Shown here: piece by piece, positions 8,115 to 49,210 of the stretch
Layout: every line of letters begins with the position of its first letter
Position numbering within the stretch: position 1 is the stretch's first letter
Origin: a virus
Lineage: Duplodnaviria; Caudoviricetes
Strand: one strand, 5' to 3'
IMG/VR virus record: IMGVR_UViG_3300020045_019291
Coordinates: 1 to 56,090 of that record
DNA: 56,090 bases
Notes under the pieces: generated by a model
What the model was told of the DNA's origin: nothing
The model's database searches: none
What the model saw: only the letters and a program-made list of their open reading frames with translations
Made by a program: the position numbers and the translations under genes

Positions 8115-8141
8115 TCATACCTATAACGAAAATCTATCAAA

Positions 8142-21546: not shown

Positions 21547-21619
21547 TTGCGAGGGCAGGATTTGAACCTGCGACCTATAGGGTATGAACCTATCGAGCTG
21601 CCAACTGCTCTACCTCACG
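21547..21619 (-). tRNA. tRNA-Met(CAT), initiator-like
   Basis: Cloverleaf: acceptor CGTGAGG/CCTCGCA with C1:A72 mismatch, D stem GAGC/GCTC, anticodon stem ATAGG/CCTAT with loop TTCATAC, T arm GCAGG-TTCAAAT-CCTGC; CCA not directly encoded. Confidence 0.9.
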
Positions 21620-29900: not shown

Positions 29901-31092
29901 CACGGTAAGGGTTTTACAACTTTCGACCATTGCTTCGACTATTCCCATCGGGATGTCATTGGCCTTGATTTCGGCAATGAAGAGTGACGACGACAAGGAT
30001 AAATCGTCTTATGAAATTTACTTGCACGCATTGGAAGGTATTTCAAAATACCAAAAAATGAAGTATATGAACATCGTAACGGGAAACAAAAATGACGAAG
30101 GCGAATACCAGGTGATCAAGATTGCCAAGGCACAAGAGCTTTCGCCAGTAATGTCGGTTACGGACGATATTTACAATAATTTCATCAGGAGCATTGCCGG
30201 AAAAGAAAAGAAAAGTATCGGGAGCATTACCCAAGATGCCTTGTTTACCTTCAACAGCACCGTGATGCCGGTGGACTTCAGCAGTCCAGGAGGATTCTTT
30301 ACCCGTACTCCAATGGTAAAAGCAACGTTGTCCTACTTGACTGGTTTTGATTTTTTCAGGGAAGAGCCGCTTTCGATGGATATTGGAAAGGTGCCAAAAC
30401 CGGTGGAAGGGATCACGATGTCGAGCACCGAGGATTTTTACAAGAAACTTGGAGAGAATTACGGTTTGTCGCCGATACGTTCCAAGGCTTTTGTGGAGAG
30501 TTTAATTACCGGACCAAGCACAAACCCATTTGTGGGAATGTTGTACGGTGGTGCCGACGCTGTCACTTCTGACAAGGATATGAAACAGATTGGCAAAGAA
30601 TTATTCAACACGGTTTACAAATCGACCGGAAAAAGGGTAATCAGTTATTCTTCGGACTTCAATCGCCAATTGGCCGCCAAGAAAGATTTGCAAGACAAGA
30701 TTGACACCATCAATATGGAAAAGTACAAGGAAAACGCTAAATTCAACGACTTGACCAAGCAATACATCAGCAAGGAAATATCGAAAGCGGAACTGCATTC
30801 GAAAATAAACGAACTGGATCCGGGTAACAGGAATAAAATGTACGACAAGGTTCAGGACAAAGTACGAATGAAAGATCTTGATGGTGCTATTCTGGACATC
30901 AAATACGAGCAAGGAAACGAGGCCAAGGCCTTGATGATAATGCACTATTATGGGGATATTTTTGATGGATCCAAAGACAGCAAGGGAATCATCAGGCAAA
31001 TGCAACGGGCCAAAGGGATATTGACTCCGGCTACCTTGCAGGAATACAACAAGATCAAGGACCAATTAGGAACAAAAAAAACCTCCAATTAA
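23923..31092 (+). CDS. Large ejection / polyvalent virion protein with ParB/Srx-like domain and LPD38-like C-terminal region
   Basis: 2389 aa; N-terminal KKPWEKNY repeat x2; IKRNGITEPIVV...VKNGNHRAAIAKELG; C-terminal N.PRD, LDFNQGG, IPYINVAFQG motifs. Confidence 0.7.
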   Translation: MPDTKKPWEKNYTVENTESQSQDKKPWEKNYVSDTEKKNSVGTSTSTIPTENTESAQKTGSSVSKSSSGFPEIDTNGIAPNYEDMKPAAENPVGKEKRLRKELANTKVTPENMEAVMAETDALSATIKTNQKAKDQAKSQRVKELETSFYDATRNNNDDAVAEQRLNDAVNTNGIWNNVKSIAKKTLNIAIDGAVKATNNVGLNNFKINDDPLAEEKQLVKKQALKNKENIGETEINQRAQQIFKEKEKDNLFLDRANSFLDNMDAEDKNLLKQDRYDKTVHLQEDNLKRLKYNAALQTVAEDKISDYKKIESQLTKLKENGEEFPEDLYSQYTALGSEIQKLGSRLNKNEEYVLNNKKDLGTAQQEFDLFKREYGDFNNIIGNIAVAAGELGTGILGAVNYASSLDGPLGQVRAMRGQEVVSGLNEDLKNARENLRTPVESIESAEGFLNYTSDLVANQIPNLVATSTGIGGLAFIGATSTGQKYTKMNDEVRQGKETYSPLQMAVAPLLYGGAEVISEIPTLSILKKGGRVIESIARNEGELITKTAKQKALELAKDYSIDMGKEMTGEQFTNFTQNFNDKFVLGKKDVNLLDNTGQVFKDTFTLTSILKVAPHTFGVIAKPFQSKTDLGTLDENSRKIIEFSRQLNTEGLTDTEKKVIQKQIDKATAESSKIVANTIGKIGDMPGELYDEVVTLNTKAGEIKAQAREINDGNLPNKEALLKGLGEDYKALQEKRNGIIEGNTTVVDILPLKEQDLLKKQALEDLVTELNPDGKKNIKITNEQVVERANEIYAESKANESNKTQTSQPSSSEEATPSVNAKIEGNSPLLSSEAQENGSKAAVNLPTSISEEQKMQFGAGYKDYNFKKENVSTDKIKITEQPSLSERQELVDDIKRNGITEPIVVEYDNESDSYYVKNGNHRAAIAKELGIKEVPTIVAEYKETNNEAISPTNTPADGNIQSGTGEMGESGIAQQESPVQESVQSSVDGGKSKGDSKPITTKKVKSVKDGEFDVDFDEKGNVLAIRSSKDGRVISKFVERKVKPSKQNPTGKILSKNANYAKIEADAKGETTENEKNNLDKEAQKIQDEKISSFEPGDEYEIALKFVAEGGKVKLSSARNETGEKNSKAMKWASGFNKESDLPSIEKAAESLMPYDSNLDEGKIRDSLIEIFTTFESLAAVKNHLLEVYDENNAKKQDQERHSFLGSLSEKDFAMYQAIQAEDNYLAELSDAEVKEHYNQKINENEQGQQEYARSETANQRPEVIAGRNDGAKEKGGIQGNPEGESQGGNDGGGIDTKSTPDQILEWLENAEKELDAFGLENLSVGIPIVVAKAAIQAMKIAVKAGKLAGEVIQAGLDAVKQSDWYKNLTQTEQDDIENDFNGNFLNKISNINPENERQTENLLNRAASENISEDDAYAEVKSTFDKARTELSNKKSFKEYSRDAYRNFVKRFTDRQYLSKSLLNKSGMKAVQNLIINSHGASGRAKIHFEEAYNEIYKKLTTVERRTLDEIIQAKRFIAIDSNREARGLEPVSHPNFIDKNKSEKFLSKLEKELGTEKYNDLARRAEAYFKTYKGLLKDMLDNGLISKESFDSMSDVDYQPRVFLQFVTDFNGDLETTKRSNNMDSSGLSSDQIKSMSEGDASILVLNSEWLLTNSLLSRSKAMAMNNINKRFMTGEFQKAQERFNKLDPKNLKGDDVRFYKYFKELSSKVIDNPFIGKTESGTEKYKFDKTPANFAKAYYYVDGQRHEFFLEKELHESWNDNFEGVIKSNYKEFISYASGAALVKAIATGNNPAFPIVNTPRDFLFTIAFSAQYSNIVPKAMLQVAKDVVKSIKEIRKPQSDVLKKYIEYGGAMDFLSSQGTLKKESLLGQAIDKSVSANTRDAAKSIFSKVTLHKISSYSEMMFRLGIFQRSIKNQLDSLGLKDISEVTDKQQLDDIYSEAVSNARSILDFNQGGVVTKDLEAVIPYINVAFQGGRVAASAFENDPVGTTVRVLQLSTIASTIPIGMSLALISAMKSDDDKDKSSYEIYLHALEGISKYQKMKYMNIVTGNKNDEGEYQVIKIAKAQELSPVMSVTDDIYNNFIRSIAGKEKKSIGSITQDALFTFNSTVMPVDFSSPGGFFTRTPMVKATLSYLTGFDFFREEPLSMDIGKVPKPVEGITMSSTEDFYKKLGENYGLSPIRSKAFVESLITGPSTNPFVGMLYGGADAVTSDKDMKQIGKELFNTVYKSTGKRVISYSSDFNRQLAAKKDLQDKIDTINMEKYKENAKFNDLTKQYISKEISKAELHSKINELDPGNRNKMYDKVQDKVRMKDLDGAILDIKYEQGNEAKALMIMHYYGDIFDGSKDSKGIIRQMQRAKGILTPATLQEYNKIKDQLGTKKTSN

Positions 31093-34461: not shown

Positions 34462-34718
34462 AATCCTAATCTTTTTTTAGCGTTTTCAAAATTTGTATTT
34501 TCAATTTTTGAGTCTTCCGGATAGTAAGTCGCCCTTGCTTTAAAATCCGTGTAACATTCTGGACAATAGCATTGGTTTAAAACCGCTATATAATTATGTT
34601 TAAAGGAGGCCTTGTTGCAATCATCACATATTCCAAGGCCTCCAAAGGCTTTATTTACTTCTGAAAGGGAAATTTCTATAACTTTAAACCCTTTCTCGTT
34701 TTCGATTACCTTAGCCAT
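34458..34718 (-). CDS. Small Zn-binding hypothetical protein
   Basis: GLGICDDCN...YIAVLNQCYCPEC; ATG MAKVIE at 34718. Confidence 0.65.
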   Translation of the reverse strand: MAKVIENEKGFKVIEISLSEVNKAFGGLGICDDCNKASFKHNYIAVLNQCYCPECYTDFKARATYYPEDSKIENTNFENAKKRLGL

Positions 34719-35785
34719 TACTTCACTTCCTTGTTGAAATAGCACAAATAATAATACATCTGTTTTTCCTCGTCCCAGCCTTTTTCGATGAACTTTTCGG
34801 CGCTTTCGGGATTTACGAAATCCAGCTTGATGGTCATTCCGGTGTCGAGATTGATGACGTTCTTGATCTTGCGTCGGGCATCGGTGACGGCGGTGTTTGA
34901 AATTGGGAAGGTGGAAACGTCCTCGATGCTGTATTTCTCGCCTTTGTCCACTTTGAAGCTTTTGAATTCGGCGATCAGGTCTGGATTGTCGATTACTTCA
35001 TTCAGGAATGCGGATTCCTCGAATTGGTCATTTTTGGCGAAGTGGTTCATCGTTCGGTTCATAAACATCACTTCTTCTTTTTTGTCTTCGGCGGGAAATA
35101 CCACTTCGGATGCAAAATCCTGGGCGAATTTCAGGTATTTTTTGGTCAGGAAATTTTCGTCGTGGAACGCATCTACCGAAAGGAAGTGTTCCAGCCAATA
35201 ACGGGCATCGTATCTATTGCTGTCCACGGTTAAAATCTTGTATCCTTCCTCTTTTTTGTAGTTGAAAATAATACAACCCTTGTCCAGTTTCTCGAGTGAA
35301 ATTCCTTGTTCGAGTTTTACGTCAAGATTGCTTTTGTCGATTTGTTGTTCTTCCTGAACCTTGATGTAGTCGTGCAGCATTTCGCTTTTGAATATCCCGA
35401 TGGCATCAACCACGGTATTGTCGATGGAAACTCCTGTCAAGTAGGCCACGTAAACTTCGCCGTTCTTGATGTGCGGGTGGTTTGATTGCTCGAAAAGATG
35501 CCCAGCTATCAATCTGGAAATGGAATGTGTTTTTCCAGGTGAATCAAAAATATCGGAAGCCCATCGGAACATATCATTGAATTCCAAATCTACTTCGTGG
35601 GCGAATTGGAAATAGTTTTCTTCTTTTTCGCGGAAGGGCTTGAAGAAAAATTCCTTGATTAATGGCGTGATTTCGTCGGACAAACGATATGGTGCGTCCG
35701 ACAAGAAAATAGGCTCGTTGCGGCTTTTGTTTCCCACTTTGTGGATTGACAAGCTCTCGATTTGCGTGTTGAATAAGTTTAGCAT
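34718..35785 (-). CDS. Nucleoid-associated protein (NA37/YejK-like), host-type
   Basis: IHKVGNK, HP.IK.GE.YV, GIFKSE, KLDKGC, YW...FL motifs; ATG MLNLFN at 35785. Confidence 0.85.
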   Translation of the reverse strand: MLNLFNTQIESLSIHKVGNKSRNEPIFLSDAPYRLSDEITPLIKEFFFKPFREKEENYFQFAHEVDLEFNDMFRWASDIFDSPGKTHSISRLIAGHLFEQSNHPHIKNGEVYVAYLTGVSIDNTVVDAIGIFKSEMLHDYIKVQEEQQIDKSNLDVKLEQGISLEKLDKGCIIFNYKKEEGYKILTVDSNRYDARYWLEHFLSVDAFHDENFLTKKYLKFAQDFASEVVFPAEDKKEEVMFMNRTMNHFAKNDQFEESAFLNEVIDNPDLIAEFKSFKVDKGEKYSIEDVSTFPISNTAVTDARRKIKNVINLDTGMTIKLDFVNPESAEKFIEKGWDEEKQMYYYLCYFNKEVK

Positions 35786-35836
35786 AATTTTTTTTTGTTT
35801 TTTGTTTTTGTGATTTCCCAATCGGTTATTAATTAT

Positions 35837-37976: not shown

Positions 37977-38381
37977 TTAAAACGGTAAATCGTCCGGTTC
38001 TTCCTCTTTCGGTGGCTGGTTTTGCGTTGGAGGTGTTGTAGGAGCTTGTCTGGCCTGTTGTGGCGACGCTGTTTTGTCCTTGGTGGAAGAGTAGAGTTTT
38101 ATTTCGCGCACGAAACATTTCAGGTTGGCTTTCGTGGAGCCGTCTCCGGCTTGGTATACTTCGATGTCTGGTTTTCCCAATACACCGATCAAGCTGCCTT
38201 TTGTGAGCCAAGGCGCTATTGCCGCATTGTTTGTGAAATAAGCGCATTTGTACCAGGTGGTGACGTTTTCGTTTTTTACTTTTTCGGTGACGGCAAGCGA
38301 AAAATTGATCACTTGTGTTGTTCCGAGGTCTTTTACTTCAGCGTCGTTTCCGATGTGTCCTACCAGTGTGAGTTGTTGCAT
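37977..38381 (-). CDS. ssb: Single-stranded DNA-binding protein
   Basis: LVGHIGNDAE, FSLAVTE, TTWY.C, L.KGS.I.V.G; acidic tail DDLPF. Confidence 0.95.
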   Translation of the reverse strand: MQQLTLVGHIGNDAEVKDLGTTQVINFSLAVTEKVKNENVTTWYKCAYFTNNAAIAPWLTKGSLIGVLGKPDIEVYQAGDGSTKANLKCFVREIKLYSSTKDKTASPQQARQAPTTPPTQNQPPKEEEPDDLPF

Positions 38382-38407
38382 TTTTGTTGAGTTTTAAAGG
38401 TTTTTAA

Positions 38408-39211
38408 TTATATTGGCAATGCCATTTTTGATAAAACGTTTGTGCTAACGTGGGTATAAATTTCCGTCGTTTTGCTACTGGAATGCCCTAAATGTTTCTG
38501 AATTATTCTTAAATCGGTTCCAGCTTCTAATAATGCCGTAGCATTACTATGTCGTAATAGATGAAAGTGATAACCTTTTCCAAGATATTTCTTAACGATC
38601 TGGTTGCAGCTTGTGTGTGAATATTGTAAATCGAATTGACCATTGAATAGAAACTCCTTTGGTTTGTAATCTGTAAAGTAAATTCGTAAAATAGAAAGAA
38701 TCTTTTCTGATAATCCCACAATTCGGTCTTTACGACCTTTACTTTGGCGAATGGTAATAATCATTCGTTTGCTGTCAATGTCTGCTATTTTTAGGTTACA
38801 AACTTCGCTCACTCGCATTCCTGTGGAATACGCCAAAGCTATAATTGCTTTATGTTTTGAGTTTTCAATTTTAGAAATACAATCCAATAAAAATTCCTTC
38901 TCGATAATTTGAGGAAGTTTCCTCTCGGATCTTGGATATTCAATATGTTTGAATTTTAACGGTTGTTTTCCGGTGAGTCTATAAAACAACTTCACGGCAG
39001 AAATTCGATGTTTTCTGCCGTTGATTGAGTTTGCCAATAGCAGCCATTGCTTGATTTGTTTTTCTGAAATTTCAGAAGGCTTGGTTGCTACTTTATTGAA
39101 ATACTCCAAAAACAATTTCACCTGACTTGAATAGTTAGAAATGGTGTTTTCGGAATAGTTTTTCAGTTTTAAATCTTCGGAATACAATTCCACATACTTT
39201 CCGATGTTCAT
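38408..39211 (-). CDS. Integron-integrase-related tyrosine recombinase (no IntI-specific insertion)
   Basis: N-terminal YS.NT..NY SAM-like domain; catalytic R (GMRVSE), K (SKGRKDR), H-x-x-R (HLLRHS), LGH, Y (TTEIYTHV); 267 aa. Confidence 0.9.
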   Translation of the reverse strand: MNIGKYVELYSEDLKLKNYSENTISNYSSQVKLFLEYFNKVATKPSEISEKQIKQWLLLANSINGRKHRISAVKLFYRLTGKQPLKFKHIEYPRSERKLPQIIEKEFLLDCISKIENSKHKAIIALAYSTGMRVSEVCNLKIADIDSKRMIITIRQSKGRKDRIVGLSEKILSILRIYFTDYKPKEFLFNGQFDLQYSHTSCNQIVKKYLGKGYHFHLLRHSNATALLEAGTDLRIIQKHLGHSSSKTTEIYTHVSTNVLSKMALPI

Positions 39212-39235
39212 AGCTTTAGGTGTTAAGTTTGTTGG

Positions 39236-39270
39236 TGTTTACAGATGGCTTTTACAAATAGTAGTTATCA
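39236..39270 (+). other. attI-like primary recombination site
   Basis: First GTTA core (39264-39267), 53 bp upstream of the recombinase ATG, with no hairpin to its left; preceded by TTTACAGAT/TTTACAAAT direct repeat. Confidence 0.65.
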
Positions 39271-39474
39271 CTCAGCTTGAGCGAAACCGTCAAGAACTTC
39301 GGTAATTGAATCTCGAATTTGTTTTAATTCTCTATAATTTAAGTCAATATAAGAATCACTATCTTGTGTTTCCATTTGCATTTGACTACAATCTTTTTGA
39401 ATTCTTATTGTGAATTCTCCATTATTATCATTTCCATTAATTTCAATGTAATTAGCTGTTTTTTTAATTTCCAT
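39268..39474 (-). CDS. Cassette 1 gene, hypothetical (68 aa)
   Basis: ATG MEIKK at 39474; stop codon lies in the GTTATCA core. Confidence 0.7.
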   Translation of the reverse strand: MEIKKTANYIEINGNDNNGEFTIRIQKDCSQMQMETQDSDSYIDLNYRELKQIRDSITEVLDGFAQAE

Positions 39475-39499
39475 TTTGTTTGATTTTAAAAAGCCGAAG

Positions 39500-39632
39500 T
39501 GATAACACACGTTAACCACTATTTAGGCATTTGGTTTAATTTAATTATTTTCTTGTACTTGTTTTTATTTTGCTCAACCGAAACATAAGGCTTTCTTAAT
39601 CCTAAACATTGGTTAGCGTGGGAACGTTAGGC
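39500..39632 (+). repeat. attC-like site 1 (133 bp)
   Basis: TAACA-CACGTTAACCACTATTTAGG...CCTAAACATTGGTTAGCGTG-GGAAC-GTTA. Confidence 0.85.
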
Positions 39633-40265
39633 GATATGTCGAGAGCTACAGCGAGAAGCGACATTTATCAGCCATTTAGCAAAATCAGGAGGCGTTGCTT
39701 CACGTTCTTGTTGTGTTACTCTAGGTTTCCATCCCAAATCCCCTTTTCGATGTCCGCTAGTTATTACGAATTCAACTAATTCAAATCTTAAAGGAATTGA
39801 TGGTAAATCTGATATTTTACACCCACATATATAAAGCAATGTCTTTTTTTCTGCCTTATGTCCCCACCAATGCTGATTGACACATATTGTAAATCCTCCA
39901 TATTCATCCACTTCTCTTCCTATAGGTAAATTCATTTCTTTCCAAAGTTTAGAAGCTCTTGGATGCTCAAGAACGCCCCCAAACTTTCTAATTTGATTAA
40001 TTGACCAAATAGCTAATTCTCTTTCACCTTCTCTAGGTTTTGCCATATGCGATAATTGCCCCCAAGCTCTACAAGGAGGATGCGCTATGATTGGATTTTT
40101 TCCATTAAACTTCCTTGCATCTCTTTTTATATCCCAACAATCAACACCTAAAGTTTTATAAATTGAATTTTCACGAACAAAAAGTGCAGAAACAAAAGAC
40201 ACATCGCCTAACAAATGATTGTCGCTATTGCCAGACTGGTCTTTAATTTGAAATTCGGTTTGCAT
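39627..40265 (-). CDS. Cassette 2 gene, cytosine methyltransferase-like protein
   Basis: IIAHPPCRAWG (PC motif IV-like), VLEHP (motif VI-like), Q.WWGH.A.K.T.LY, R..TP..FA; start codon inside attC2, stop is the TTA of the GTTA core. Confidence 0.7.
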   Translation of the reverse strand: MQTEFQIKDQSGNSDNHLLGDVSFVSALFVRENSIYKTLGVDCWDIKRDARKFNGKNPIIAHPPCRAWGQLSHMAKPREGERELAIWSINQIRKFGGVLEHPRASKLWKEMNLPIGREVDEYGGFTICVNQHWWGHKAEKKTLLYICGCKISDLPSIPLRFELVEFVITSGHRKGDLGWKPRVTQQEREATPPDFAKWLINVASRCSSRHIA

Positions 40266-40336
40266 CTTTATGATTTGTGTTTAATTTAATTACTTGGTTT
40301 ATTTTTTGGCAACAGCGACAATCTTTTCCGTTATCG
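40206..40336 (+). repeat. attC-like site 2 (131 bp)
   Basis: TAACAAAT-GATTGTCGCTATTGCCA...TGGCAACAGCGACAATC-TTTTCC-GTTA. Confidence 0.85.
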
Positions 40337-40363
40337 TTCAGCTTGGTTGGAACGGCTAAAGGA

Positions 40364-40576
40364 TTACTTATGATATTTTGATTTTGGTAATTCAAATAAT
40401 TTTCCATTTCTGTCATATAGATTAGAAAAGTTTTCGTGTTGTGGTTGCATTTTATAAACTATCGGTTCCGGTAAAAAAGGTCTCATTCTACGTTGTCTAA
40501 TTTCTTCAAGCCTTTCTTTTTCTAATTCTTGCAATCGCATAACCATTGCATAGATTCTTAATTTTTGTACTGACAT
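40364..40576 (-). CDS. Cassette 3 gene, hypothetical (70 aa)
   Basis: Single ATG ORF between GTTA 40330 and TAAC 40603. Confidence 0.7.
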   Translation of the reverse strand: MSVQKLRIYAMVMRLQELEKERLEEIRQRRMRPFLPEPIVYKMQPQHENFSNLYDRNGKLFELPKSKYHK

Positions 40577-40599
40577 ATTTTGAAAATAAAAAGCCGAAA

Positions 40600-40738
40600 C
40601 GATAACAAATGATATAAGAGATTTTCGGCTTGGTTTATAAATTTAATTTTTGGGTTTGTACTTTTTTACTTTGGTCTTGAACTGAAAGTTTCGGGATTTA
40701 TCCTGCCGAAAATCCTCTCATATCATCGACCGTTAGTG
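40600..40738 (+). repeat. attC-like site 3 (139 bp)
   Basis: TAACAA-ATGATATAAGAGATTTTCGGC...GCCGAAAATCCTCTCATATCAT-CGACC-GTTA. Confidence 0.85.
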
Positions 40739-40749
40739 GCAACCGTCTG

Positions 40750-41115
40750 CTATTCAGTATAAATATTACTTTTAATTTCAAAACTTCCATCATAATCTTT
40801 ATAAAGTTCTGATAAAAAATAAAAAACACTTTGATTTTCGTCAATACAAATAAAAGCAAGAAGTAATTCATCCCATTTTATAACCCAATCGTTCAATTCT
40901 ATATCTCCTTCATAAATTTCATTTTTATTTTTGTCTAATAATCCAGTAAATCTATTGAAAGAAACAACTTTCCATTGTTTGTCAATTCCAAATCTGATAA
41001 GTCCGTTTTTTTCACTTAACAAAGGAATTATAAAAGTATCAATATCTCCTTTTTTATAAGTTCCCCATTTTTCAACTATTAATTCTAATCTGAATCTATA
41101 TTTTATTTCTTTCAT
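40750..41115 (-). CDS. Cassette 4 gene, YopX-family protein
   Basis: MKEIKYR...FTGLLDKNKNEIYEGDI...EI.SNIY. Confidence 0.8.
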   Translation of the reverse strand: MKEIKYRFRLELIVEKWGTYKKGDIDTFIIPLLSEKNGLIRFGIDKQWKVVSFNRFTGLLDKNKNEIYEGDIELNDWVIKWDELLLAFICIDENQSVFYFLSELYKDYDGSFEIKSNIYTE

Positions 41116-41140
41116 AATTGTTAATTTTTACGTGGTATGC

Positions 41141-41275
41141 CACTAACACTTGCTAAACAAGATTCGGGCATTTGTGATTTATTTAAAGTCATTTTTGTAC
41201 TTGGTTTTATGGTTTTTTAATTAGAGGTTCAGGCTTTTCTAATCCCGAACCTCGTTTAGCAAGAGAACGTTAGCA
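41141..41275 (+). repeat. attC-like site 4 (135 bp)
   Basis: TAACA-CTTGCTAAACAAGATTCGGG...CCCGAACCTCGTTTAGCAAG-AGAAC-GTTA. Confidence 0.85.
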
Positions 41276-41276
41276 C

Positions 41277-41558
41277 TCATTTTAAGAACTCGTAGTCACC
41301 ATTGGCGTTTTTCTTAAAAATTGTAATATAACCTTCTGATATTTTGTATAATTTAAAAAACGATAATACTTTTTGCCACCATTTAACTTTTATATATGGG
41401 TCAAATCCAGCAAGAAATCTTCCGTTTTCGTTAGCAACAAACATAACTTTCGTTTTTTCTTCATCAATCCACACGTAATCACCTTTTATAGGTTTGCGAG
41501 AAAAACGAGTGCTAACATACGCTTGTAGCAAGAGGATTTTAGTCTTTAATTTAAACAT
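41277..41558 (-). CDS. Cassette 5 gene, hypothetical (93 aa)
   Basis: ATG lies inside the attC5 loop and the ORF reads through the left arm. Confidence 0.65.
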   Translation of the reverse strand: MFKLKTKILLLQAYVSTRFSRKPIKGDYVWIDEEKTKVMFVANENGRFLAGFDPYIKVKWWQKVLSFFKLYKISEGYITIFKKNANGDYEFLK

Positions 41559-41640
41559 AGTTTTGTACTTTTAAGATTAGTCATTAATTTAATTTGCAGG
41601 ATTTATCTTTTCCTCCTGCTACAAGCGTCAGCCGTTAGCA
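41510..41640 (+). repeat. attC-like site 5 (131 bp)
   Basis: TAACAT-ACGCTTGTAGCAAGAGGA...TCCTCCTGCTACAAGCGT-CAGCC-GTTA. Confidence 0.85.
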
Positions 41641-41654
41641 TCAATGCTACGAAA

Positions 41655-42155
41655 CTACTTATGAAGAACTCCTCCAGTTAATTCACATATAAATTTTAAT
41701 AGTTTTTCCATTTCTGGATTTCTACTTGCGTAAGACAAATAATCTTGTGGTTGACTTAAATTATGTTTGTTGTCTTTAATGTGTTGCAAACACGCTTTTT
41801 CAGTTAAAAATGAATTTTCCAAACGTTCTTCGTAATCATAATTTACTTTACGGTATCCAGCACTTTCCATTTCGCTTTCACGTTCCCAATTAGACATTTC
41901 TTTAATAGCTTTTTTAGTCAAATCTCCATCACGGTAATCATAAATAGCTTGAATGATTTCCTCTTGTGTTTCAATTAAACTTCCGTCATAGTTCCAAGCA
42001 ACAATTCCGTTGCCTTCTGGAACAGCAATTTGATGTTTAGTTTGTACTTGAAAGAAATAAGGCATTGCAGTTCCTCTATGGCTTTGAGTGTTTATTTCTT
42101 TTGACAAATCCATTAAGAAATTATAAGTTTCGTCATTTACTTGAATTGTTTTCAT
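41655..42155 (-). CDS. Cassette 6 gene, phage hypothetical protein (166 aa)
   Basis: ATG MKTIQV at 42155; TQ..R.TA.P.F and FLT.K.C..HI..N motifs of phage hypothetical proteins. Confidence 0.75.
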   Translation of the reverse strand: MKTIQVNDETYNFLMDLSKEINTQSHRGTAMPYFFQVQTKHQIAVPEGNGIVAWNYDGSLIETQEEIIQAIYDYRDGDLTKKAIKEMSNWERESEMESAGYRKVNYDYEERLENSFLTEKACLQHIKDNKHNLSQPQDYLSYASRNPEMEKLLKFICELTGGVLHK

Positions 42156-42185
42156 AAGATGTTTTAGTTTTAATAACCGCACTAA

Positions 42186-42318
42186 TGCTAACACAGGTTT
42201 GCAAAAATGGCAAGTTCAGGTTTAATTTAAAGTTGTTTTTGTGTCTTTGTGGCTTGGTCTTAAACCAAATTTTTAGGCTTGCTTTTTTGCCACTTCTGCA
42301 AGCCTGATAACGTTATGC
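42186..42318 (+). repeat. attC-like site 6 (133 bp)
   Basis: TAACA-CAGGTTTGCAAAAATGGCAA...TTGCCACTTCTGCAAGCCTG-ATAAC-GTTA. Confidence 0.85.
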
Positions 42319-42337
42319 CTAATACTACTATTTAGGA

Positions 42338-42589
42338 TTAAAGACAACCTCTATTTTTTAATTCAGATATAATTGCCGTTTTTTCATCACTATCTTTTTG
42401 TTTCTGAATATAATTATAACACCATTGAAACATATCATTTGATTCGTTTTTGGGTGTGTTTCCGGCTAGTTCTTTAGGGATATAAATAGTTTTAAATATC
42501 TCTTTTTTACAGTTTGTTAAATTTTCACAATAAACTATTTCTGATTTTCCGTTTTCGTGTTTTTCAACTTTACAATTACAATCTTTCAT
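42338..42589 (-). CDS. Cassette 7 gene, hypothetical (83 aa)
   Basis: Single ATG ORF between GTTA 42312 and TAAC 42636. Confidence 0.7.
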   Translation of the reverse strand: MKDCNCKVEKHENGKSEIVYCENLTNCKKEIFKTIYIPKELAGNTPKNESNDMFQWCYNYIQKQKDSDEKTAIISELKNRGCL

Positions 42590-42632
42590 TTTGTTTTTAT
42601 TTATTATTAATTATTTACTTTTGCCGTACTAG

Positions 42633-42712
42633 GCATAACAGCGGCTACATTTCAGCAGCCGAAATCGTGTTGGTACATAGGCTGCCGAAACTGTAGCCGC
42701 AAAACGTTACAC
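42633..42712 (+). repeat. attC-like site 7 (80 bp, short loop)
   Basis: TAACA-GCGGCTACATTTCAGCAGCC...GGCTGCCGAAACTGTAGCCGC-AAAAC-GTTA. Confidence 0.85.
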
Positions 42713-42738
42713 AATAAACTGGATAAAAAAACTCTATT

Positions 42739-44835
42739 TTAAGGCTTGAAATAAGCCTGAAACCTTACCAATTCTGGATATTCCGGGGAGCGAATCAATC
42801 CGTCTCCGGCACCCGCCAATTGTTCCGCACCGCCTTCGTCCAGCACCACTTTTGAATCAATTTCTTTTGGAACACGGAAACAGATTTGGACAGGGAAGTT
42901 TGCTTTTGCGTCTCCGGTTATTACTTTCACGGAAGCCCTTTGGGTTGCGGCCACGATTCTGAAACCAACGGATCGACCTTTTTGAAGCAGGATTCTAAGG
43001 TTTTCTTCCAGCGTGTTTTTGGTGCCGGTTTTTTGAAGTTTCATTTTTGGCACCAAGGTGTCTCCAAACATTCCTTTCATTTTTTGTTGGCCCACTTCCA
43101 CCATTTCCATAATGTCCAATTCCTTGCCTTTTCGTCCTTGGGATTGGGCGTCGGCAAATTCGTCGAAAATTATTAGTGTTTTTTCGTTGCTTCCGGCTTT
43201 CACGCGCTCATTCATTTCGATAACCAATTCTTCCAAGGCCACTTCGATGTCTTCTATTTCGCTGAAAATGTTGACTCCTTTTAGTCCCATTCTGCAAAAC
43301 TCGAATTTTGGATCAAGGATAAAAATATGTTTGACTCCGGCCAGTTTTGCGAATTCGATAATGGTTTTTAATTCCACCGATTTTCCAGAGCCAGTGGCAC
43401 CACAAACCAAGGCGTGGGGAGTGGAATGGTTGTTCAGGTCCCAATGGATGATTTTCTCGAAATTATCTCGGCCAATAGGTATTTTCATATCTACCAAGTC
43501 TTTTTTGGTGAACAAAAGGTCTTTTTCCCTTTTTTTGGAAAGTTCCACGGCTAGATATGCCTTGCCTTCATAAACCACCAAATCTTTGGAAATCCTAACA
43601 TTGGAAACATTCAAGGCGCTTGCCAAATCTAGTTTATGCGACTGAATGGAAGCGATTTTTACGCCTCCGGAAACTGCCAACAAATAAGTGTTGCTGGAAT
43701 AGCCGTCGAACTTGTGTTCTACTTTGACGGGAGCACCAAAGGTTCTAAGAACGTGCTCGATTTTTTCTTCTGGACTCATATTTTTGTTGCTTAAATCGTA
43801 TTGGATGAATTGGGAGGCATTTTCTTGAAACTGCTTGATTACTTTTGGATTGATGGAGCCAATAGAGGCGTCGCGTATTTTTTTCAAACGTCGGGAAACC
43901 AATTCTCGTTTTGACTCGTCCACGTTGAAATCTTCGACTTCGGCAATCAGGGTTTTTGCCCAAAATTCATAAATTTCGGCACTGTCTACCAGATTATCAG
44001 AATCATTGATCATATAGACGTAATCTGGATCGTTTACGGCTTCAAGCATACGTTTTAACGGCTCGTAAAGTAGAGCTTCGTATAACCTGCGATTATCTTT
44101 ATCCAATTCTATTCTAAAGCAGTTTAATTGGCTTGATTTGTCTCGGTTTTCGGAATATTTGTTCTCGACAAACCAGACTTCATCCACGGCAATTCCTGTT
44201 TTGCTTTCGTAGCAATTAACATAGGTTATCGCTTGGCGACCAATGAAAAGTTTCATTTCCTCCTCGCTAGAAAAAGAGTTTTTCGACTTGTGATCGATAA
44301 CCGCCACTTTTCCAGATTTTAGTTTGACGACTAAATCTATCTTGAAATTGCAGGGAAGCGGGATTTCGACGCCGTTGATCGTCACATATTCGGATCCAAA
44401 AACTTCCACGTCCAAGATTTCTTCAATTTGGTCGGTGTAAATACCAACTTCCTTGATAAAAAATTTGAGCAATGCGGTTGCGGTTTTGCAAGCTTTTATT
44501 TTGCACTCGGCAATGGAGGGGGTCGTTTTTTGAACCTTCCATTTATTAGCCGGTGTTTCGTCGATGGTGTCGAATGCCACGGCTTCCAAATCTGCCAAAT
44601 CAAGGGTGTTTCCTTCCTTCAGCGATTGAAAATAAAATTGAAGGGCATTGTGGTAAGCGGTTCCGGCCACGGTAGTTGACGAATTTTTGATGGTGTAGCC
44701 GTAAATGCTGGTCATTTCGAAAGCTTTTTCGTTTCTGGAAAACTCGGCAACTTTTGAAAAGCTCCAACTGTTTACCAAGAATTGGCTTTTTACATTTTCC
44801 AATTCTTCTTCGGTCATTAATTTGTAGGCGCTCAT
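42739..44835 (-). CDS. PD-(D/E)xK nuclease fused to FtsK/SpoIIIE-type ATPase
   Basis: N-half WSFS, GTAYH, KIDLV...VIDHKS, Q...Y (RecB-like); C-half PHALVCGATGSGKS, IIFDEFAD, GRSVG....ATQR, AEQL.G.GDG. Confidence 0.85.
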   Translation of the reverse strand: MSAYKLMTEEELENVKSQFLVNSWSFSKVAEFSRNEKAFEMTSIYGYTIKNSSTTVAGTAYHNALQFYFQSLKEGNTLDLADLEAVAFDTIDETPANKWKVQKTTPSIAECKIKACKTATALLKFFIKEVGIYTDQIEEILDVEVFGSEYVTINGVEIPLPCNFKIDLVVKLKSGKVAVIDHKSKNSFSSEEEMKLFIGRQAITYVNCYESKTGIAVDEVWFVENKYSENRDKSSQLNCFRIELDKDNRRLYEALLYEPLKRMLEAVNDPDYVYMINDSDNLVDSAEIYEFWAKTLIAEVEDFNVDESKRELVSRRLKKIRDASIGSINPKVIKQFQENASQFIQYDLSNKNMSPEEKIEHVLRTFGAPVKVEHKFDGYSSNTYLLAVSGGVKIASIQSHKLDLASALNVSNVRISKDLVVYEGKAYLAVELSKKREKDLLFTKKDLVDMKIPIGRDNFEKIIHWDLNNHSTPHALVCGATGSGKSVELKTIIEFAKLAGVKHIFILDPKFEFCRMGLKGVNIFSEIEDIEVALEELVIEMNERVKAGSNEKTLIIFDEFADAQSQGRKGKELDIMEMVEVGQQKMKGMFGDTLVPKMKLQKTGTKNTLEENLRILLQKGRSVGFRIVAATQRASVKVITGDAKANFPVQICFRVPKEIDSKVVLDEGGAEQLAGAGDGLIRSPEYPELVRFQAYFKP

Positions 44836-47914: not shown

Positions 47915-49210
47915 ATGGCAACCTTAAAACTATTCATTTCGGGCAAGAAAAGCCCGTCGGAAATCAAAGTCAGATATTTGAATGGTCGCGCTATTGATAT
48001 TGTGGCGGGAACCAAATTGTTTATTTTGTCATCTGCCTGGGATGAAAAAAACCAGAAGATTAGAAACGTTATTTCGGTGCCGGATCGCGACAAACTGAAT
48101 TCAAAATTATTGGAATTGAAAAATCATATTTTCAATGCTTCAAATATGGATTTTACCGAGGGGGAAATCTTGAACAGGATTTGGCTGGAAAAATGTATTG
48201 CCAAATATTTCAATCGTCCGTCGAACGAACTTAAAAAAGCACCGGAATACCACAAGATTTACTTGACTGATTTTGCCGAATGGTGGCTTAAATACAAGGC
48301 TCCAAAATTCAAAGTTTCTGCCGAAAAATATATGGACGATACAACTATTCGCCATTATGAAATTTTGAAAAACCTGATCAAGAAATTTGAAGGGAAGGAC
48401 AAAATCAAGTTTTCTTTGATTGACGATGTTTTACTGGACAAGTTCTCGGAATTCTTGACGATTGAAAAATATGCCGAAAAAACAGCTAAGCGAATGATAG
48501 GAAGGTTCAAGTTTTTTTGCGGTCGAGCCGAAGCGGAAAATATCGTCATTAACAAGTCTTATGAGAATCGCGTTTTTGTAAAAAAAGCCGAGATTGAATA
48601 TAAAGAACCTTACTTTGACGAGATTGAAATAAACAAGATTTACAACCACGATTTTAGCCAAAATCAAACTTTGGACGATGTGAGAGACAATTTAATTATT
48701 GGACTTTGGACCGGATTAAGGGTTTCCGACTTTTTGAGCAGGTTGAAAATTGATAATTTCCACGATGATTTTATCGAGGTGCAGACCGAAAAAACAAAAA
48801 CTTTCGTGAGTATTCCAATTCATTGGATGGTTGCTGACATTTTAAAGAAAAGAAATGGTATTTTGCCGTCAAAAATAAGTGATCCAAAATTCAACAAGCA
48901 TATTAAAACGATTGCCAAAATTTTGAAATTTGATCAAATGATGATGGGCGGCGTTTCTACCGTGGATGAAAAGACGGGAATTAAAAGAAAAGTCGTAAAA
49001 TTGTACGAGAAAAACCAGCTCGTAACTAGTCATATTTGCCGCAGAAGTTTTGCGACAAATATATACGGGACTGTGCCAAACACAACTTTAATGGCAATAT
49101 GTGGCTGGGCTAGCGAAGAACAGATGCTTGATTACATCAAGAAAACGAACAGGGAACACGCAGAGACTTTGAAAAAAGTTTGGGATAACAAATACAATAA
49201 AGCAGTTTAA
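47915..49210 (+). CDS. Prophage integrase (Bacteroidota-type tyrosine recombinase with arm-binding and SAM-like domains)
   Basis: TGLRVSD, EKT, SHICRRSFATN, GW, Y.K; 431 aa next to attP; TATATTTG at 47788-47795. Confidence 0.9.
   Translation: MATLKLFISGKKSPSEIKVRYLNGRAIDIVAGTKLFILSSAWDEKNQKIRNVISVPDRDKLNSKLLELKNHIFNASNMDFTEGEILNRIWLEKCIAKYFNRPSNELKKAPEYHKIYLTDFAEWWLKYKAPKFKVSAEKYMDDTTIRHYEILKNLIKKFEGKDKIKFSLIDDVLLDKFSEFLTIEKYAEKTAKRMIGRFKFFCGRAEAENIVINKSYENRVFVKKAEIEYKEPYFDEIEINKIYNHDFSQNQTLDDVRDNLIIGLWTGLRVSDFLSRLKIDNFHDDFIEVQTEKTKTFVSIPIHWMVADILKKRNGILPSKISDPKFNKHIKTIAKILKFDQMMMGGVSTVDEKTGIKRKVVKLYEKNQLVTSHICRRSFATNIYGTVPNTTLMAICGWASEEQMLDYIKKTNREHAETLKKVWDNKYNKAV

What the first reader, a model, noticed from the sequence alone, without database searches (positions are those of the whole stretch)
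39500..42712. Non-canonical attC geometry with a conserved mismatch position and strand bias
Seen: (i) the spacer between core and stem is strongly asymmetric, 1-2 nt left versus 5 nt right in six sites (4 vs 6 in site 2), unlike the roughly symmetric spacer of classical attC; (ii) stems are 17-21 bp; (iii) the 15th base after TAAC is an A opposite C in sites 1, 2, 4, 5, 6 and 7, and site 3 has an extra C at that position; (iv) my manual count of stem mismatches gives 9 A-C versus 2 T-G on the plus strand, so the minus strand folds better through G-T pairs; (v) all eight cores read GTTA-N6-A. Known: integrons recombine the folded bottom strand, guided by extrahelical bases. Inference: the minus strand is the substrate, and the bulge plus the +15 G-T pair are the recognition determinants.
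Basis: partly seen in the sequence, partly recalled or inferred. Interest (0 to 1): 0.75.

Follow-up and report, generated by a model that had tools for sequence, protein, structure and literature searches.

The report
Integron-like hairpin sites in Flavobacterium phage
The seven hairpin sites are real members of a large, apparently undescribed family of folded-DNA recombination sites that separate swappable gene cassettes in Flavobacterium phages and chromosomes, next to a small Xer-type recombinase rather than a classical integron integrase.

Summary
Seven sites (39497-42712) have TAAC...GTTA ends, 18-23 bp stems and a 4-nt bulge on one arm only. A G-T wobble sits at a fixed stem position, and the minus strand folds better.

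A covariance model finds the same element in about 270 further copies:
- 96 hits in Flavobacterium phage genomes and viral contigs.
- 153 hits upstream of homologues of the window's 267-aa recombinase.
- 38 hits in stretches fetched from two Flavobacterium chromosomes.

Stems covary, and two G-T positions are nearly invariant: 80/86, 141/146 and 38/38 at the stem position.

In chromosomal arrays the folding strand is antisense to the genes, so mRNA G-U pairing does not explain the bias. Four near-identical Muminvirus genomes differ by five cassette gains or swaps. All seven junctions lie in or next to the TAAC core of the folding strand. A solo TAAC box sits about 52 nt upstream of the recombinase in 63 of 68 loci.

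Best reading (0.6): attC-like single-strand recombination sites of an integron-like system. It is not a canonical integron, because the IntI insertion and the extrahelical bases are absent. Recombination itself is inferred, not shown.

The parts
39497..39635 (-). Element S1 (long hairpin site; cores at plus-strand TAAC 39503-39506 and GTTA 39626-39629)
   Evidence: The covariance model R1 scores it at 122.4 bits and it folds as a hairpin. It is 91% identical to an intergenic stretch of Flavobacterium phage 11b, and that homology ends exactly at 39629.
40203..40339 (-). Element S2
   Evidence: R1 scores it at 119.4 bits. It is 96.5% identical to an element in viral locus L079, whose flanks differ on both sides. 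A metagenome contig matches 40208-40333 alone, from core to core.
40597..40741 (-). Element S3 (G bulged at the position of the conserved wobble pair)
   Evidence: R1 scores it at 106.7 bits. The bulged G is seen in the folds.
41138..41278 (-). Element S4
   Evidence: R1 scores it at 130 bits. The minus strand folds at -18.9 kcal/mol against -12.6 for the plus strand.
41507..41643 (-). Element S5
   Evidence: R1 scores it at 125.2 bits. Contigs from three metagenome runs match 41265/41268-41637/41639, that is S5 plus its downstream ORF, and diverge at both TAAC cores.
42183..42321 (-). Element S6
   Evidence: R1 scores it at 131.6 bits. It is 83% identical to an intergenic element of Muminvirus phages.
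42633..42712 (-). Element S7 (short form, 80 nt, without the long conserved loop)
   Evidence: It folds at -21.3 kcal/mol on the minus strand, z -5.2. It was not used to build the model. It has 78-90% identical counterparts in L026, L047 and L079, and a contig matches 42636-42709 alone.
39212..39267 (-). Solo core without a hairpin (sense TAAC at 39267..39264) followed by a conserved box reaching the recombinase start; attI-like
   Evidence: A core lies a median 52 nt upstream of the recombinase in 63 of 68 related loci. Pairwise identity is 0.33 upstream of the core and 0.54 downstream. Four contigs start exactly at this TAAC. Homology between the window and the Flavobacterium MAG contig L121 starts at 39268.
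38408..39211 (-). 267-aa Xer/XerA-type tyrosine recombinase, candidate cassette recombinase
   Evidence: Pfam Phage_integrase matches at 1.8e-36. NF040815 scores 187.8 bits (cut-off 220). TIGR02249 scores 139.6 bits in 2 stretches (cut-off 265). The nearest solved structures are XerA 4a8e and 5hxy; IntI4 2a3v matches in 2 stretches. Arg, His-x-x-Arg-His and Tyr motifs are visible in the translation (reading them as catalytic residues is recalled knowledge).
39268..39474 (-). Cassette ORF (68 aa), last before the solo core
   Evidence: ORF list. No family hit.
39627..40265 (-). Cassette ORF (212 aa if it starts at the ATG in the S2 loop); its stop codon TAA lies in the TAAC core of S1
   Evidence: ORF list. 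phrog_12600 matches at 3.4e-64 from residue 24 onward.
40364..40576 (-). Cassette ORF (70 aa)
   Evidence: ORF list. Contigs match 40331-40607, from core to core, in two metagenome runs.
40750..41115 (-). Cassette ORF (121 aa), YopX-like
   Evidence: Pfam YopX at 2e-5 and phrog_98.
41277..41558 (-). Cassette ORF (93 aa); its ATG lies in the S5 loop
   Evidence: ORF list and context script.
41655..42194 (-). Cassette ORF (179 aa from GTG; an ATG at 42165 gives 170 aa)
   Evidence: ORF list. phrog_3205 matches at 2.7e-20.
42338..42589 (-). Cassette ORF (83 aa), first of the array
   Evidence: ORF list. No family hit.

Best explanation
The seven sites belong to a family of roughly 135-nt elements, with short forms of about 60-105 nt. 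They work as attC-like recombination sites of an integron-like cassette system in Flavobacterium and its phages.

One DNA strand, the window's minus strand, folds as single-stranded DNA into a hairpin with these parts:
- a closing box TAACG/TGTTA that contains a G-T pair;
- a 4-nt bulge on the 5' arm only;
- four base pairs;
- a frequent C.A mismatch;
- a stem of about 13 bp with one invariant G-T wobble;
- a loop of about 75 nt, A-rich on the folding strand, with conserved motifs.

A small XerA-type tyrosine recombinase exchanges strands inside the 5' TAAC of the folded strand. It is encoded beside the array in temperate phages and in chromosomes, and presumably acts in trans for phages that lack it. 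Units of one hairpin plus the following gene(s) are thereby gained, lost and swapped. A hairpin-less TAAC box next to the recombinase gene plays the part of attI.

Shown here: the structure, its covariation, the strand bias, the conserved irregular positions, the position of natural cassette junctions, the solo core, and the linkage to the recombinase.

Inferred: that the recombinase catalyses the exchange, that the substrate is single-stranded, and that the bulge and the wobble pair are what the enzyme reads.
For: 1. Structure under selection.
- In 88 distinct phage copies, 93.3% of cells pair against 64.2% in shuffles (0 of 500 shuffles reach this). There are 520 double-change cells against 173, and slid controls give 32-51%.
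- The 38 chromosomal copies behave the same way: 94.0% against 71.2%.

2. Strand specificity.
- G-T against A.C in the modelled pairs is 228 vs 12, 425 vs 19 and 128 vs 16. Outside the two invariant columns it is 65 vs 12, 142 vs 19 and 55 vs 16.
- The stem wobble is G-T in 80/86, 141/146 and 38/38 copies. The closing wobble is G-T in 83/86, 142/147 and 35/38.

3. The bias is not an mRNA effect.
- In arrays of F. psychrophilum and F. saccharophilum all elements lie on the strand opposite to the ORFs. In L204 there are 9 elements on '-' and 10 large ORFs on '+' (one 57-aa minus-strand ORF overlaps an element), and 9 of the 10 have Pfam hits.
- The wobble positions are kept in these copies.

4. 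Natural junctions.
- Four Muminvirus genomes are 99.8-100% identical in their shared segments, apart from one diverged methyltransferase segment at 81.5%. They differ by 5 insertion or replacement events.
- All 7 junctions lie within or directly beside TAAC(GTT) at the 5' end of the folding strand. One insertion sits at a solo core.
- In 61 pairs of elements at least 85% identical from different loci, homology starts within -3..+4 of TAAC in 35 and within +5..+25 in 13.
- Outer flanks do not covary, as expected if flanks come from different partners.
- Metagenome contigs in four runs match single modules and diverge at the cores (only 32 of 562 pieces were listed).

5. Platform.
- 80 viral loci hold recombinase homologues at 53-95% identity. 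Of the best 150 of 153 model hits there, 144 elements lie upstream and co-oriented, 0 upstream and antisense, and 6 downstream.
- 41 of 53 loci with at least 1.5 kb of upstream sequence have an array.
- The solo TAAC box is present in 63 of 68 loci. A related box follows the recombinase gene in two chromosomes.

6. A dedicated enzyme.
- In the two genomes whose arrays were examined, and in G010, there are two longer Xer paralogues plus a third of about 263 aa lying beside the elements. G006 and G009 show a similar set of paralogues.
- The window has a separate 431-aa integrase (47915-49210) that can serve lysogeny.

7. Precedent.
- A hairpin predicted as attC in a Polaribacter phage CALIN was recombined by IntI1 in E. 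coli, bottom strand only (Qi et al. 2023, PMC9892861; section 3.4 and searched passages read).
- The intergenic stretch of that phage that I read between methyltransferase genes holds a short hairpin of the same TAACG...TGTTA design. I could not confirm that it is the site the authors tested.
Against: - No experiment shows recombination at these sites or activity of this recombinase.
- Complete or near-complete phage genomes with 3-16 elements have no PF00589 gene in six frames: 11b, filifjonk9-1, G001 and G003. The Muminvirus events are nevertheless recent, so an enzyme in trans or another mechanism must be assumed.
- In 29 of 61 similar-element pairs, homology also stops at the 3' GTTA core. 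Contigs carry elements alone or ORFs alone. A single crossover point therefore does not explain every boundary. Re-use of one site type for unrelated genes, as recalled for Vibrio repeats, would explain it, but that is not shown.
- The platform layout differs between phage and chromosome. In phage the array is upstream of the recombinase and everything lies on the folding strand. In chromosomes the array is downstream and genes lie on the other strand.
- Linkage of the recombinase to arrays among related phages may partly be inherited gene order.
- The conserved loop has no role in this model.
- The alignments were fitted to a model built from six window sites, which leans the counts toward the structure.
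Confidence: 0.6

Rival explanations
1. These are double-strand Xer or dif-module-like recombination sites. Each TAAC and GTTA core is part of a duplex site cut by host XerC/D or by the phage Xer-like enzyme. Modules flanked by inverted cores are swapped or inverted, as proposed for pdif modules of Acinetobacter plasmids. Hairpin folding is then secondary.
For: - Both cores act as module boundaries.
- Cores alternate in orientation along the array.
- The enzyme is Xer-type.
- Cassette genes are inverted between phage and chromosome relative to the elements, as inversion between inverted cores would give.
- Phages without a recombinase could use host Xer.
- Most 5' cores read AACGTT, a palindrome.
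- dif modules are documented (search listing and abstract starts only).
Against: - A duplex mechanism does not need 20 covarying base pairs, a strand-specific excess of G-T over A.C, or an invariant wobble.
- No two-armed 11-6-11 site is evident around the cores. Only one conserved arm lies outside each core. I did not search formally for such a site.
- All 7 recent Muminvirus junctions use the same core, the 5' one.
Confidence: 0.15
2. These are RNA-level regulatory cassettes, comparable to the promoter-early stem-loops (PeSL) of T4-type phages or to RNase III processing hairpins of T7 early mRNA. The hairpin folds in the transcript, the loop carries a promoter or translation start, and shuffling is a by-product of recombination between repeats.
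For: - In phages every element is co-oriented with its genes, so the folding strand is the mRNA strand.
- About 40 of the 88 downstream ORFs open at an ATG inside the loop, 45-73 nt before the 3' GTTA. Others start 14-50 nt after the element.
- The loop is conserved.
- Homology blocks often run from TAAC to the next start codon.
- PeSLs mediate modular shuffling and mini-circles in T4-type phages (Arbiol et al. 2010, PMC2839356, abstract read).
Against: - In chromosomal arrays the folding strand is antisense to the genes, yet the structure and wobble positions are kept.
- Sigma-70-like promoters are not enriched in the array (9 found against 15.2 expected), nor are terminators (1 against 1.9).
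- The Bacteroidetes -7 motif TAnnTTTG (recalled from memory) occurs on the sense strand in 0 of 7 elements.
- No Rfam family matches.
- Junctions fall within a 4-8-nt core rather than in the longest shared stretch.
Confidence: 0.1
3. These are selfish intergenic repeats of the MITE or REP type, moved by an unidentified transposase such as an HUH enzyme acting on hairpin DNA. Their presence between genes and the sharp ends reflect insertion, not cassette exchange.
For: - Dozens of copies exist per Flavobacterium genome, many of them single and many at contig ends. G007 has at least 63 hits with only 150 of 3755 candidates scored.
- Identical element types occur between unrelated genes.
- The ends TAAC and GTTA are sharp.
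Against: - Copies within one genome differ in stem sequence but keep pairing, unlike recent transposon copies.
- No transposase is linked to them.
- The units gained or lost in Muminvirus are element plus gene(s), not elements alone.
- A dedicated recombinase and a solo core flank the arrays.
Confidence: 0.1

Closest known systems
Integron attC sites and CALINs, including those reported in phages (Qi et al. 2023, PMC9892861)
   Same: - Imperfect palindromes about 60-140 nt long, with inverted AAC/GTT cores.
- Structure is conserved while sequence varies.
- They lie in arrays between accessory genes.
- One strand folds, and junctions fall in the core at the 5' end of that strand.
- A hairpin-less core sits beside a tyrosine recombinase.
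- Cargo is defence genes in chromosomes and methyltransferases in phages.
   Different: - The recombinase has no IntI-type insertion.
- There are no single extrahelical bases. Instead there is a 4-nt bulge on the arm next to the crossover core, plus fixed G-T and C.A positions. Canonical sites have two extrahelical bases on one side, read by the IntI-specific helix (Larouche and Roy 2011, PMC3053210, passages read).
- The loop is conserved in length and sequence.
- In phages the genes lie on the folding strand.
- The family is not mentioned for Flavobacterium in the main texts of PMC9892861 or PMC9024848.
Vibrio chromosomal integron repeats and integrons as stores of anti-phage defence cassettes
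   Same: A genus-specific, highly similar site type is re-used for unrelated cassettes. Chromosomal arrays carry restriction-modification, reverse-transcriptase, GmrSD and HEPN genes.
   Different: The comparison rests on recalled knowledge and on abstract starts seen in one search listing. The enzyme, the site geometry and the host phylum all differ.
dif (pdif) modules of Acinetobacter plasmids
   Same: A Xer-type enzyme is involved. Modules are bounded by short cores in alternating orientation, and both ends of a module are exchange points.
   Different: pdif sites are 28-bp duplex sites without long covarying hairpins (recalled; only the listing and abstract starts were seen).
PeSL regulatory cassettes of T4-type phages (Arbiol et al. 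2010, PMC2839356)
   Same: Repeated intergenic stem-loop units lie in a hyperplastic phage region, and closely related phages differ by gene gain, loss and replacement at these units.
   Different: PeSLs are a sigma-70 promoter plus a terminator stem-loop that recombine by homology (abstract read). Here no such promoter or terminator is detected, junctions lie in a 4-8-nt core, and the elements also occur antisense to genes in chromosomes.
Folded single-strand attP of CTX-type phages used by XerC/D
   Same: A hairpin of about 150 nt in single-stranded DNA presents a Xer-type site (recalled from memory).
   Different: That site serves to integrate a filamentous phage genome at dif, once per genome. 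It does not form arrays of cassettes. This was not tested here.

Membership tests
Integron attC site | Inverted core sites R'' (RYYYAAC) and R' (GTTRRRY) at the two ends | tested here: inconclusive
   TAAC is kept in 83-87 of 87 copies and GTTA in 83-86 of 86. The three outer bases follow their own consensus, not RYYY/RRRY. They pair no more often than shuffled flanks do.
Integron attC site | Imperfect palindrome whose structure, not sequence, is conserved | tested here: met
   93-94% of cells are paired, with 520 and 184 double changes, far above the shuffled and slid controls.
Integron attC site | [quoted passage not shown] | tested here: not met
   No single-base bulges are conserved. Instead there is a 4-nt bulge on the 5' arm and fixed G-T and C.A positions. 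The canonical feature is taken from PMC3053210.
Integron attC site | Roughly symmetric unpaired central spacer between the R and L boxes | tested here: not met
   There are 4 nt on the 5' side and 0 nt on the 3' side in most copies. The canonical geometry is recalled from memory.
Integron attC site | Crossover within the AAC/GTT triplet of one core only, on the folded strand | tested here: inconclusive
   All 7 recent Muminvirus junctions are compatible with one point inside TAAC of the folding strand. In older comparisons the 3' GTTA is also a boundary in 29 of 61 pairs. No enzyme assay exists.
Integron (complete) | IntI integrase with the IntI-specific additional domain, scoring above the curated cut-off | tested here: not met
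   TIGR02249 scores 139.6 bits for the window enzyme and 198-206 bits for the three chromosomal enzymes tested, against a cut-off of 265, always in 2 stretches. The proteins are 259-269 aa. The best model is NF040815 XerA-type. IntI4 2a3v matches in 2 stretches.
Integron (complete) | attI site next to the integrase gene, where cassettes abut | tested here: inconclusive
   A solo TAAC with a conserved box is present in 63 of 68 loci. The sequence is variable on the cassette side and conserved on the recombinase side. One insertion at a solo core is seen in filifjonk9-1. Function is untested.
PeSL-type promoter/terminator cassette | Strong host-type promoter plus an effective terminator stem-loop | tested here: not met
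   Sigma-70-like sites number 9 against 15.2 expected, and terminator-like sites 1 against 1.9. TAnnTTTG is on the sense strand in 0 of 7 elements. Phage-specific promoters cannot be excluded.
dif / pdif Xer site | 28-bp duplex site of two 11-bp arms around a 6-bp spacer | not tested
   Only the flank consensus was computed. No formal search for two-armed sites was made, and no Flavobacterium dif site was compared.
Described RNA family (Rfam 15) | A match at or near a family's gathering score | tested here: not met
   No family matches the elements, even at E up to 10, in 38000-44000. Only one tRNA is found in the whole window.

The most novel reading that the evidence does not exclude
Flavobacterium and its relatives, together with their phages, share a previously unrecognised integron-like system. 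It is built on a XerA-type recombinase without the IntI insertion and on a non-canonical folded site marked by a bulge and fixed wobble pairs instead of extrahelical bases.

Chromosomal arrays stockpile anti-phage defence cassettes. Phage arrays of the same sites, with the genes flipped onto the folding strand, stockpile counter-defence genes such as orphan methyltransferases. Cassettes could then pass between hosts and phages, and lytic phages without the enzyme could borrow it in trans.
Probability: 0.4. Interest if true: 0.9.

Novelty: new variant of a known kind. Interest (0 to 1): 0.8.

Why it matters
- Integrons are defined by IntI and by attC sites with extrahelical bases, and they are reported as rare in Bacteroidetes. 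IntegronFinder 2.0 names only a Salinibacter integron and never mentions Flavobacteria.
- If this reading is right, a second solution to the same problem exists: a plain Xer-type enzyme reading a differently marked hairpin. It is abundant in a major aquatic genus and in its phages.
- It would explain the hypervariable early regions of Flavobacterium phages, where near-identical isolates differ by whole methyltransferase cassettes.
- It would explain the cassette-like defence islands of their hosts.
- It would give a defined, testable set of recognition features: the bulge, the G-T at a fixed position, the C.A mismatch and T at -7. These bear on how tyrosine recombinases choose a strand.
- It shows that current attC detectors probably miss whole families.

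Tried and rejected
- **Rfam.** No family fits the elements, either at gathering scores over the whole window or at E up to 10 over 38-44 kb.
- **Loop structure.** A mutual-information scan over all column pairs found only the main stem. Local alternative hairpins seen by eye in S3-S6 were not supported by covariation.
- **Promoter or terminator idea.** Sigma-70 and terminator scans and the TAnnTTTG motif gave nothing above chance.
- **Element ahead of the first gene of the leftward operon in Muminvirus.** I dropped this idea. An unannotated open frame on the same strand runs into the element.
- **Linkage of the window's cassette genes to particular elements.** This could not be tested. Only one of seven cassette ORFs has any homologue in the roughly 110 viral loci.
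- **Polaribacter phage P12002L.** Model R1 finds no match, because R1 includes the long loop. By eye its methyltransferase spacer holds a short hairpin of the same design.
- **tRNA genes as attachment sites.** In the 11 recombinase loci without model hits, 10 have no tRNA gene. One (L102) has two tRNA genes downstream of the recombinase.
- **Sequencing runs.** No RNA holder was listed. All four runs laid were contigs, so transcript ends and expression could not be read. Parts of the stretch without cover mean nothing.
- **Supplements.** Supplementary tables of Qi et al. 2023, which list all 17 phage CALINs, could not be opened. They may list Flavobacterium phages.
- **Literature.** I used all 10 literature searches. 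In the listings shown, none describes these elements in Flavobacterium or its phages. The Muminvirus paper (PMC7077304) has no occurrence of palindrom, hairpin, intergenic, promoter or integron. Subscription journals are not covered.
- **Rows left out of counts.** In one search only the best 150 of 153 hits were used. In one search, L002, L023 and L035 (duplicates of other loci) and elements without 400-nt flanks or without both cores were dropped, leaving 186 elements. In one search, elements lacking either core were dropped, leaving 209.

Full report
**What is in the window**

The window is an IMG/VR virus record of 56,090 bases, linear and about 77% complete. Between 39.2 and 42.8 kb, seven small ORFs lie on the minus strand, separated by seven imperfect hairpins:
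- S1 39497-39635
- S2 40203-40339
- S3 40597-40741
- S4 41138-41278
- S5 41507-41643
- S6 42183-42321
- S7 42633-42712 (short form)

The array is bounded on one side by a gene for an FtsK/HerA-like ATPase fused to a PD-(D/E)XK nuclease (42739-44835). On the other side lies a 267-aa tyrosine recombinase (38408-39211), followed by an SSB gene. A generic scan for TAAC...GTTA hairpins finds such sites nowhere else in the window, and shuffles give 0-1.

**Checking the five observations**

All five hold.

- Geometry. Read on the minus strand, each site is TAACG, a bulge of mostly 4 nt, a stem of about 20 bp, a loop of about 75 nt, the return stem, then TGTTA with no or one unpaired base.
- Fixed mismatch. 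The A opposite C at plus-strand position 15 is a G-T wobble on the minus strand in six sites. S3 has a bulged G there.
- Strand bias. I count 18 G-T pairs against 2 C.A and 1 A.G mismatches on the minus strand.
- Stability. With DNA parameters the minus strand is the more stable in S2-S5 and S7. The strands are equal in S1. In S6 the plus strand is lower, but through another fold.
- Cores. All eight GTTA-N6-A cores exist. The bare pattern is not enriched in the window, but the position is conserved in the family (see below).

**A large family**

Two of the sites are 83-91% identical to intergenic DNA of Flavobacterium phages 11b and the Muminvirus group, while the flanking genes are not. I built a covariance model from six window sites (R1). 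It finds:
- 3-4 copies in phage 11b and 14-16 in filifjonk9-1;
- 96 matches in 28 sources;
- 153 matches around homologues of the recombinase;
- 38 matches in fetched stretches of two Flavobacterium chromosomes.

Stems covary strongly. In the phage set 93.3% of cells are paired against 64.2% in shuffles, with 520 double changes against 173 and slid controls at 32-51%. The chromosomal set gives 94.0% against 71.2%.

Two wobble positions are almost invariant:
- the closing G-T: 83/86, 142/147 and 35/38;
- the stem G-T: 80/86, 141/146 and 38/38.

A C.A mismatch at a third fixed position is frequent. Outside the invariant columns, G-T still outnumbers A.C: 65 to 12, 142 to 19 and 55 to 16. The 5' bulge is 4 nt in 63/88, 79/147 and 36/38 copies. 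T stands seven bases before TAAC in 195 of 209 elements, and G stands seven bases after GTTA in 163 of 209. The counts lean somewhat toward the model's structure, because the alignments were fitted to it.

**DNA or RNA?**

In phages every element is co-oriented with its genes, so the folding strand is also the mRNA strand.

The chromosomal copies decide this. In F. psychrophilum (contigs C44, C23 and C45) and F. saccharophilum (C9), arrays of the same elements lie on the strand opposite to the ORFs. Those ORFs are real genes with Pfam domains. The structure and the wobble positions are nevertheless kept. A constraint that follows one DNA strand whichever way the genes run points to folding of single-stranded DNA.

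Other results point the same way:
- No Rfam family matches.
- No sigma-70-type promoter or terminator signal is enriched.
- The recalled Bacteroidetes -7 motif is absent from the sense strand of all seven elements.

**Recombination at the core**

Four Muminvirus genomes are 99.8-100% identical in their shared segments, apart from one diverged methyltransferase segment at 81.5%. They differ by five events in the element-rich region: two insertions or deletions of [element + gene], one of three cassettes, and two replacements of methyltransferase cassettes.

At nucleotide level all seven junctions lie inside or directly beside TAAC(GTT) at the 5' end of the folding strand, and all are compatible with one exchange point within TAAC. 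One insertion sits at a TAAC that has no hairpin behind it.

Further evidence on boundaries:
- Among 61 pairs of elements at least 85% identical from different loci, homology begins within -3..+4 of TAAC in 35 and just inside it in 13. It ends within -4..+3 of GTTA in 29, and 11-30 nt later, at the next start codon, in 18.
- The outer flanks pair no more often than shuffled flanks do.
- Contigs from four public metagenome runs match single modules and run on unlike sequence from the cores. Examples are S2 alone, S7 alone, one ORF from core to core, and S5 plus its ORF. Only 32 of 562 pieces were listed.

Thus the 5' TAAC is the main boundary, and the 3' GTTA is a second one. A strict single-crossover model does not explain the second boundary by itself.

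**The platform**

Homologues of the 267-aa recombinase, at 53-95% identity in 80 viral loci, have elements upstream and co-oriented. Of the best 150 hits, 144 lie there, none is upstream and antisense, and 6 are downstream. Arrays are present in 41 of 53 loci with enough upstream sequence.

About 52 nt before the start codon, 63 of 68 loci carry a solo TAAC followed by a conserved, partly palindromic box. Sequence is unrelated on the cassette side (identity 0.33) and conserved on the recombinase side (0.54). Four contigs begin exactly at that TAAC. In the window this core is at 39264-39267.

The enzyme is of the Xer/XerA type:
- The best model is NF040815. The integron-integrase model matches below its cut-off and in two stretches.
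- The nearest solved structures are XerA, then IntI4 split in two.
- The expected catalytic motifs are visible in the translation.

The window also encodes a 431-aa integrase of the usual phage kind at 47915-49210. The small enzyme is therefore not needed for lysogeny.

In the two Flavobacterium genomes whose arrays were examined, and in G010, two longer Xer paralogues are accompanied by a third of about 263 aa beside the elements; G006 and G009 show a similar set of paralogues. The two full-length chromosomal copies tested reach the NF040815 cut-off, at 222 and 221 bits against 220, and a third, slightly truncated one scores 214. A related box ending in GTTA or GTTG follows its stop codon.

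The layout differs from the phage. In chromosomes the array is downstream of the recombinase and the genes are on the non-folding strand. That is the canonical orientation of integron cassettes.

**Cargo**

One F. psychrophilum array carries the following:
- an AAA_21/RloB pair;
- an AccI restriction enzyme with an Eco57I-type methylase;
- a reverse transcriptase;
- GmrSD;
- a HEPN protein.

The Muminvirus arrays carry up to five DNA methyltransferases. The window's cassettes are small genes of unknown function, plus one YopX-like protein.

**What speaks against the reading**

- Nothing here shows catalysis.
- Complete phage genomes with 3-16 elements lack any tyrosine recombinase in six frames. 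The recent Muminvirus events therefore need an enzyme in trans or another mechanism.
- The second boundary at GTTA, the conserved loop and the two different layouts are unexplained.
- Synteny among related phages inflates the linkage counts.

I therefore put the integron-like single-strand reading at 0.6. The rivals are a duplex Xer/dif-module reading at 0.15, an RNA regulatory-cassette reading at 0.1, and a selfish-repeat reading at 0.1.

**Relation to what is known**

Qi et al. (2023, PMC9892861; section 3.4 and searched passages read) reported 17 clusters of attC sites in phages. One is in Polaribacter phage P12002L, with methyltransferase cassettes, and one of its predicted sites was recombined by IntI1 in E. 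coli on the bottom strand only. A methyltransferase spacer of that phage holds a short hairpin of the same TAACG...TGTTA design, although R1 does not match it. I could not confirm that this hairpin is the site those authors tested.

Their main text never mentions Flavobacterium, and the supplements were closed. The IntegronFinder 2.0 paper names only a Salinibacter integron in Bacteroidetes.

The family fails defining features of canonical attC and integrons: extrahelical bases, a symmetric spacer and the IntI insertion. It works like them in the features I could test. I rate it a new variant of a known kind.

Noticed in passing
window 47915-49210 (+): A second tyrosine recombinase of 431 aa (Phage_int_SAM_5 plus Phage_integrase). 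It is the usual large phage or ICE integrase type and is likely the lysogeny integrase.
   Followed up: partly
window 42739-44835 (-): A 698-aa protein joining a PD-(D/E)XK nuclease domain to an FtsK/HerA-type ATPase. Its gene lies directly at the promoter-proximal end of the cassette array.
   Followed up: no
window 34718-35821 (-) and 37977-38381 (-): A 37-kD nucleoid-associated protein (NA37) gene and an SSB gene lie downstream of the recombinase on the same strand. SSB could bear on hairpin folding of single-stranded DNA.
   Followed up: no
window 21547-21619 (-): One tRNA gene, the only Rfam match in the window.
   Followed up: no
window 23923-31092 (+) and 15324-19871 (+): Very long ORFs of 2389 and 1515 aa. 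The second has a bacterial Ig domain. They are probably structural or tail proteins, and most large ORFs of the left half have no Pfam hit.
   Followed up: no
L002/L039 (Muminvirus filifjonk9-1) and many viral loci: About 40 of 88 downstream ORFs, including annotated methyltransferases, open at an ATG inside the element's loop, so their first 15-24 codons would be encoded by the hairpin's 3' arm. For the window's ORF 39627-40265 the PHROG match starts only at residue 24.
   Followed up: partly
L036 8030-8420 (Muminvirus mumin6-1): An unannotated open frame on the minus strand ends in the TAAC of the element at 8100-8241. The record annotates small plus-strand ORFs there instead.
   Followed up: no
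G007 (F. psychrophilum DSM 3660), many contigs: At least 63 elements were found with only 150 of 3755 candidates scored. Many lie within about 20 bases of contig ends, so the repeats appear to break the assembly.
   Followed up: partly
L204 (G007:C44:1-13899): A chromosomal array whose cassettes are defence genes: AAA_21 plus RloB, AccI endonuclease plus Eco57I-type methylase, a reverse transcriptase, GmrSD and a HEPN protein.
   Followed up: partly
L207 1305-2006 (G007:C14): A single element lies just after a ParE toxin gene with an upstream 79-aa ORF that may encode its antitoxin, and before a DUF4197 gene. It is antisense to both the ParE and DUF4197 genes.
   Followed up: no
window element loops (minus strand), e.g. 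41545-41600: The loop holds a direct repeat of a TTAAAGAC-like motif on either side of an AAGTACAAA motif. It is conserved in phage and chromosomal copies alike, and its role is unknown.
   Followed up: partly
L121 (Flavobacterium MAG contig, 119,844 bases): A close relative of the window phage lies at the end of a long bacterial contig, so it is probably a prophage. DNA homology with the window starts exactly at the solo core (39268) and runs to the structural genes.
   Followed up: partly
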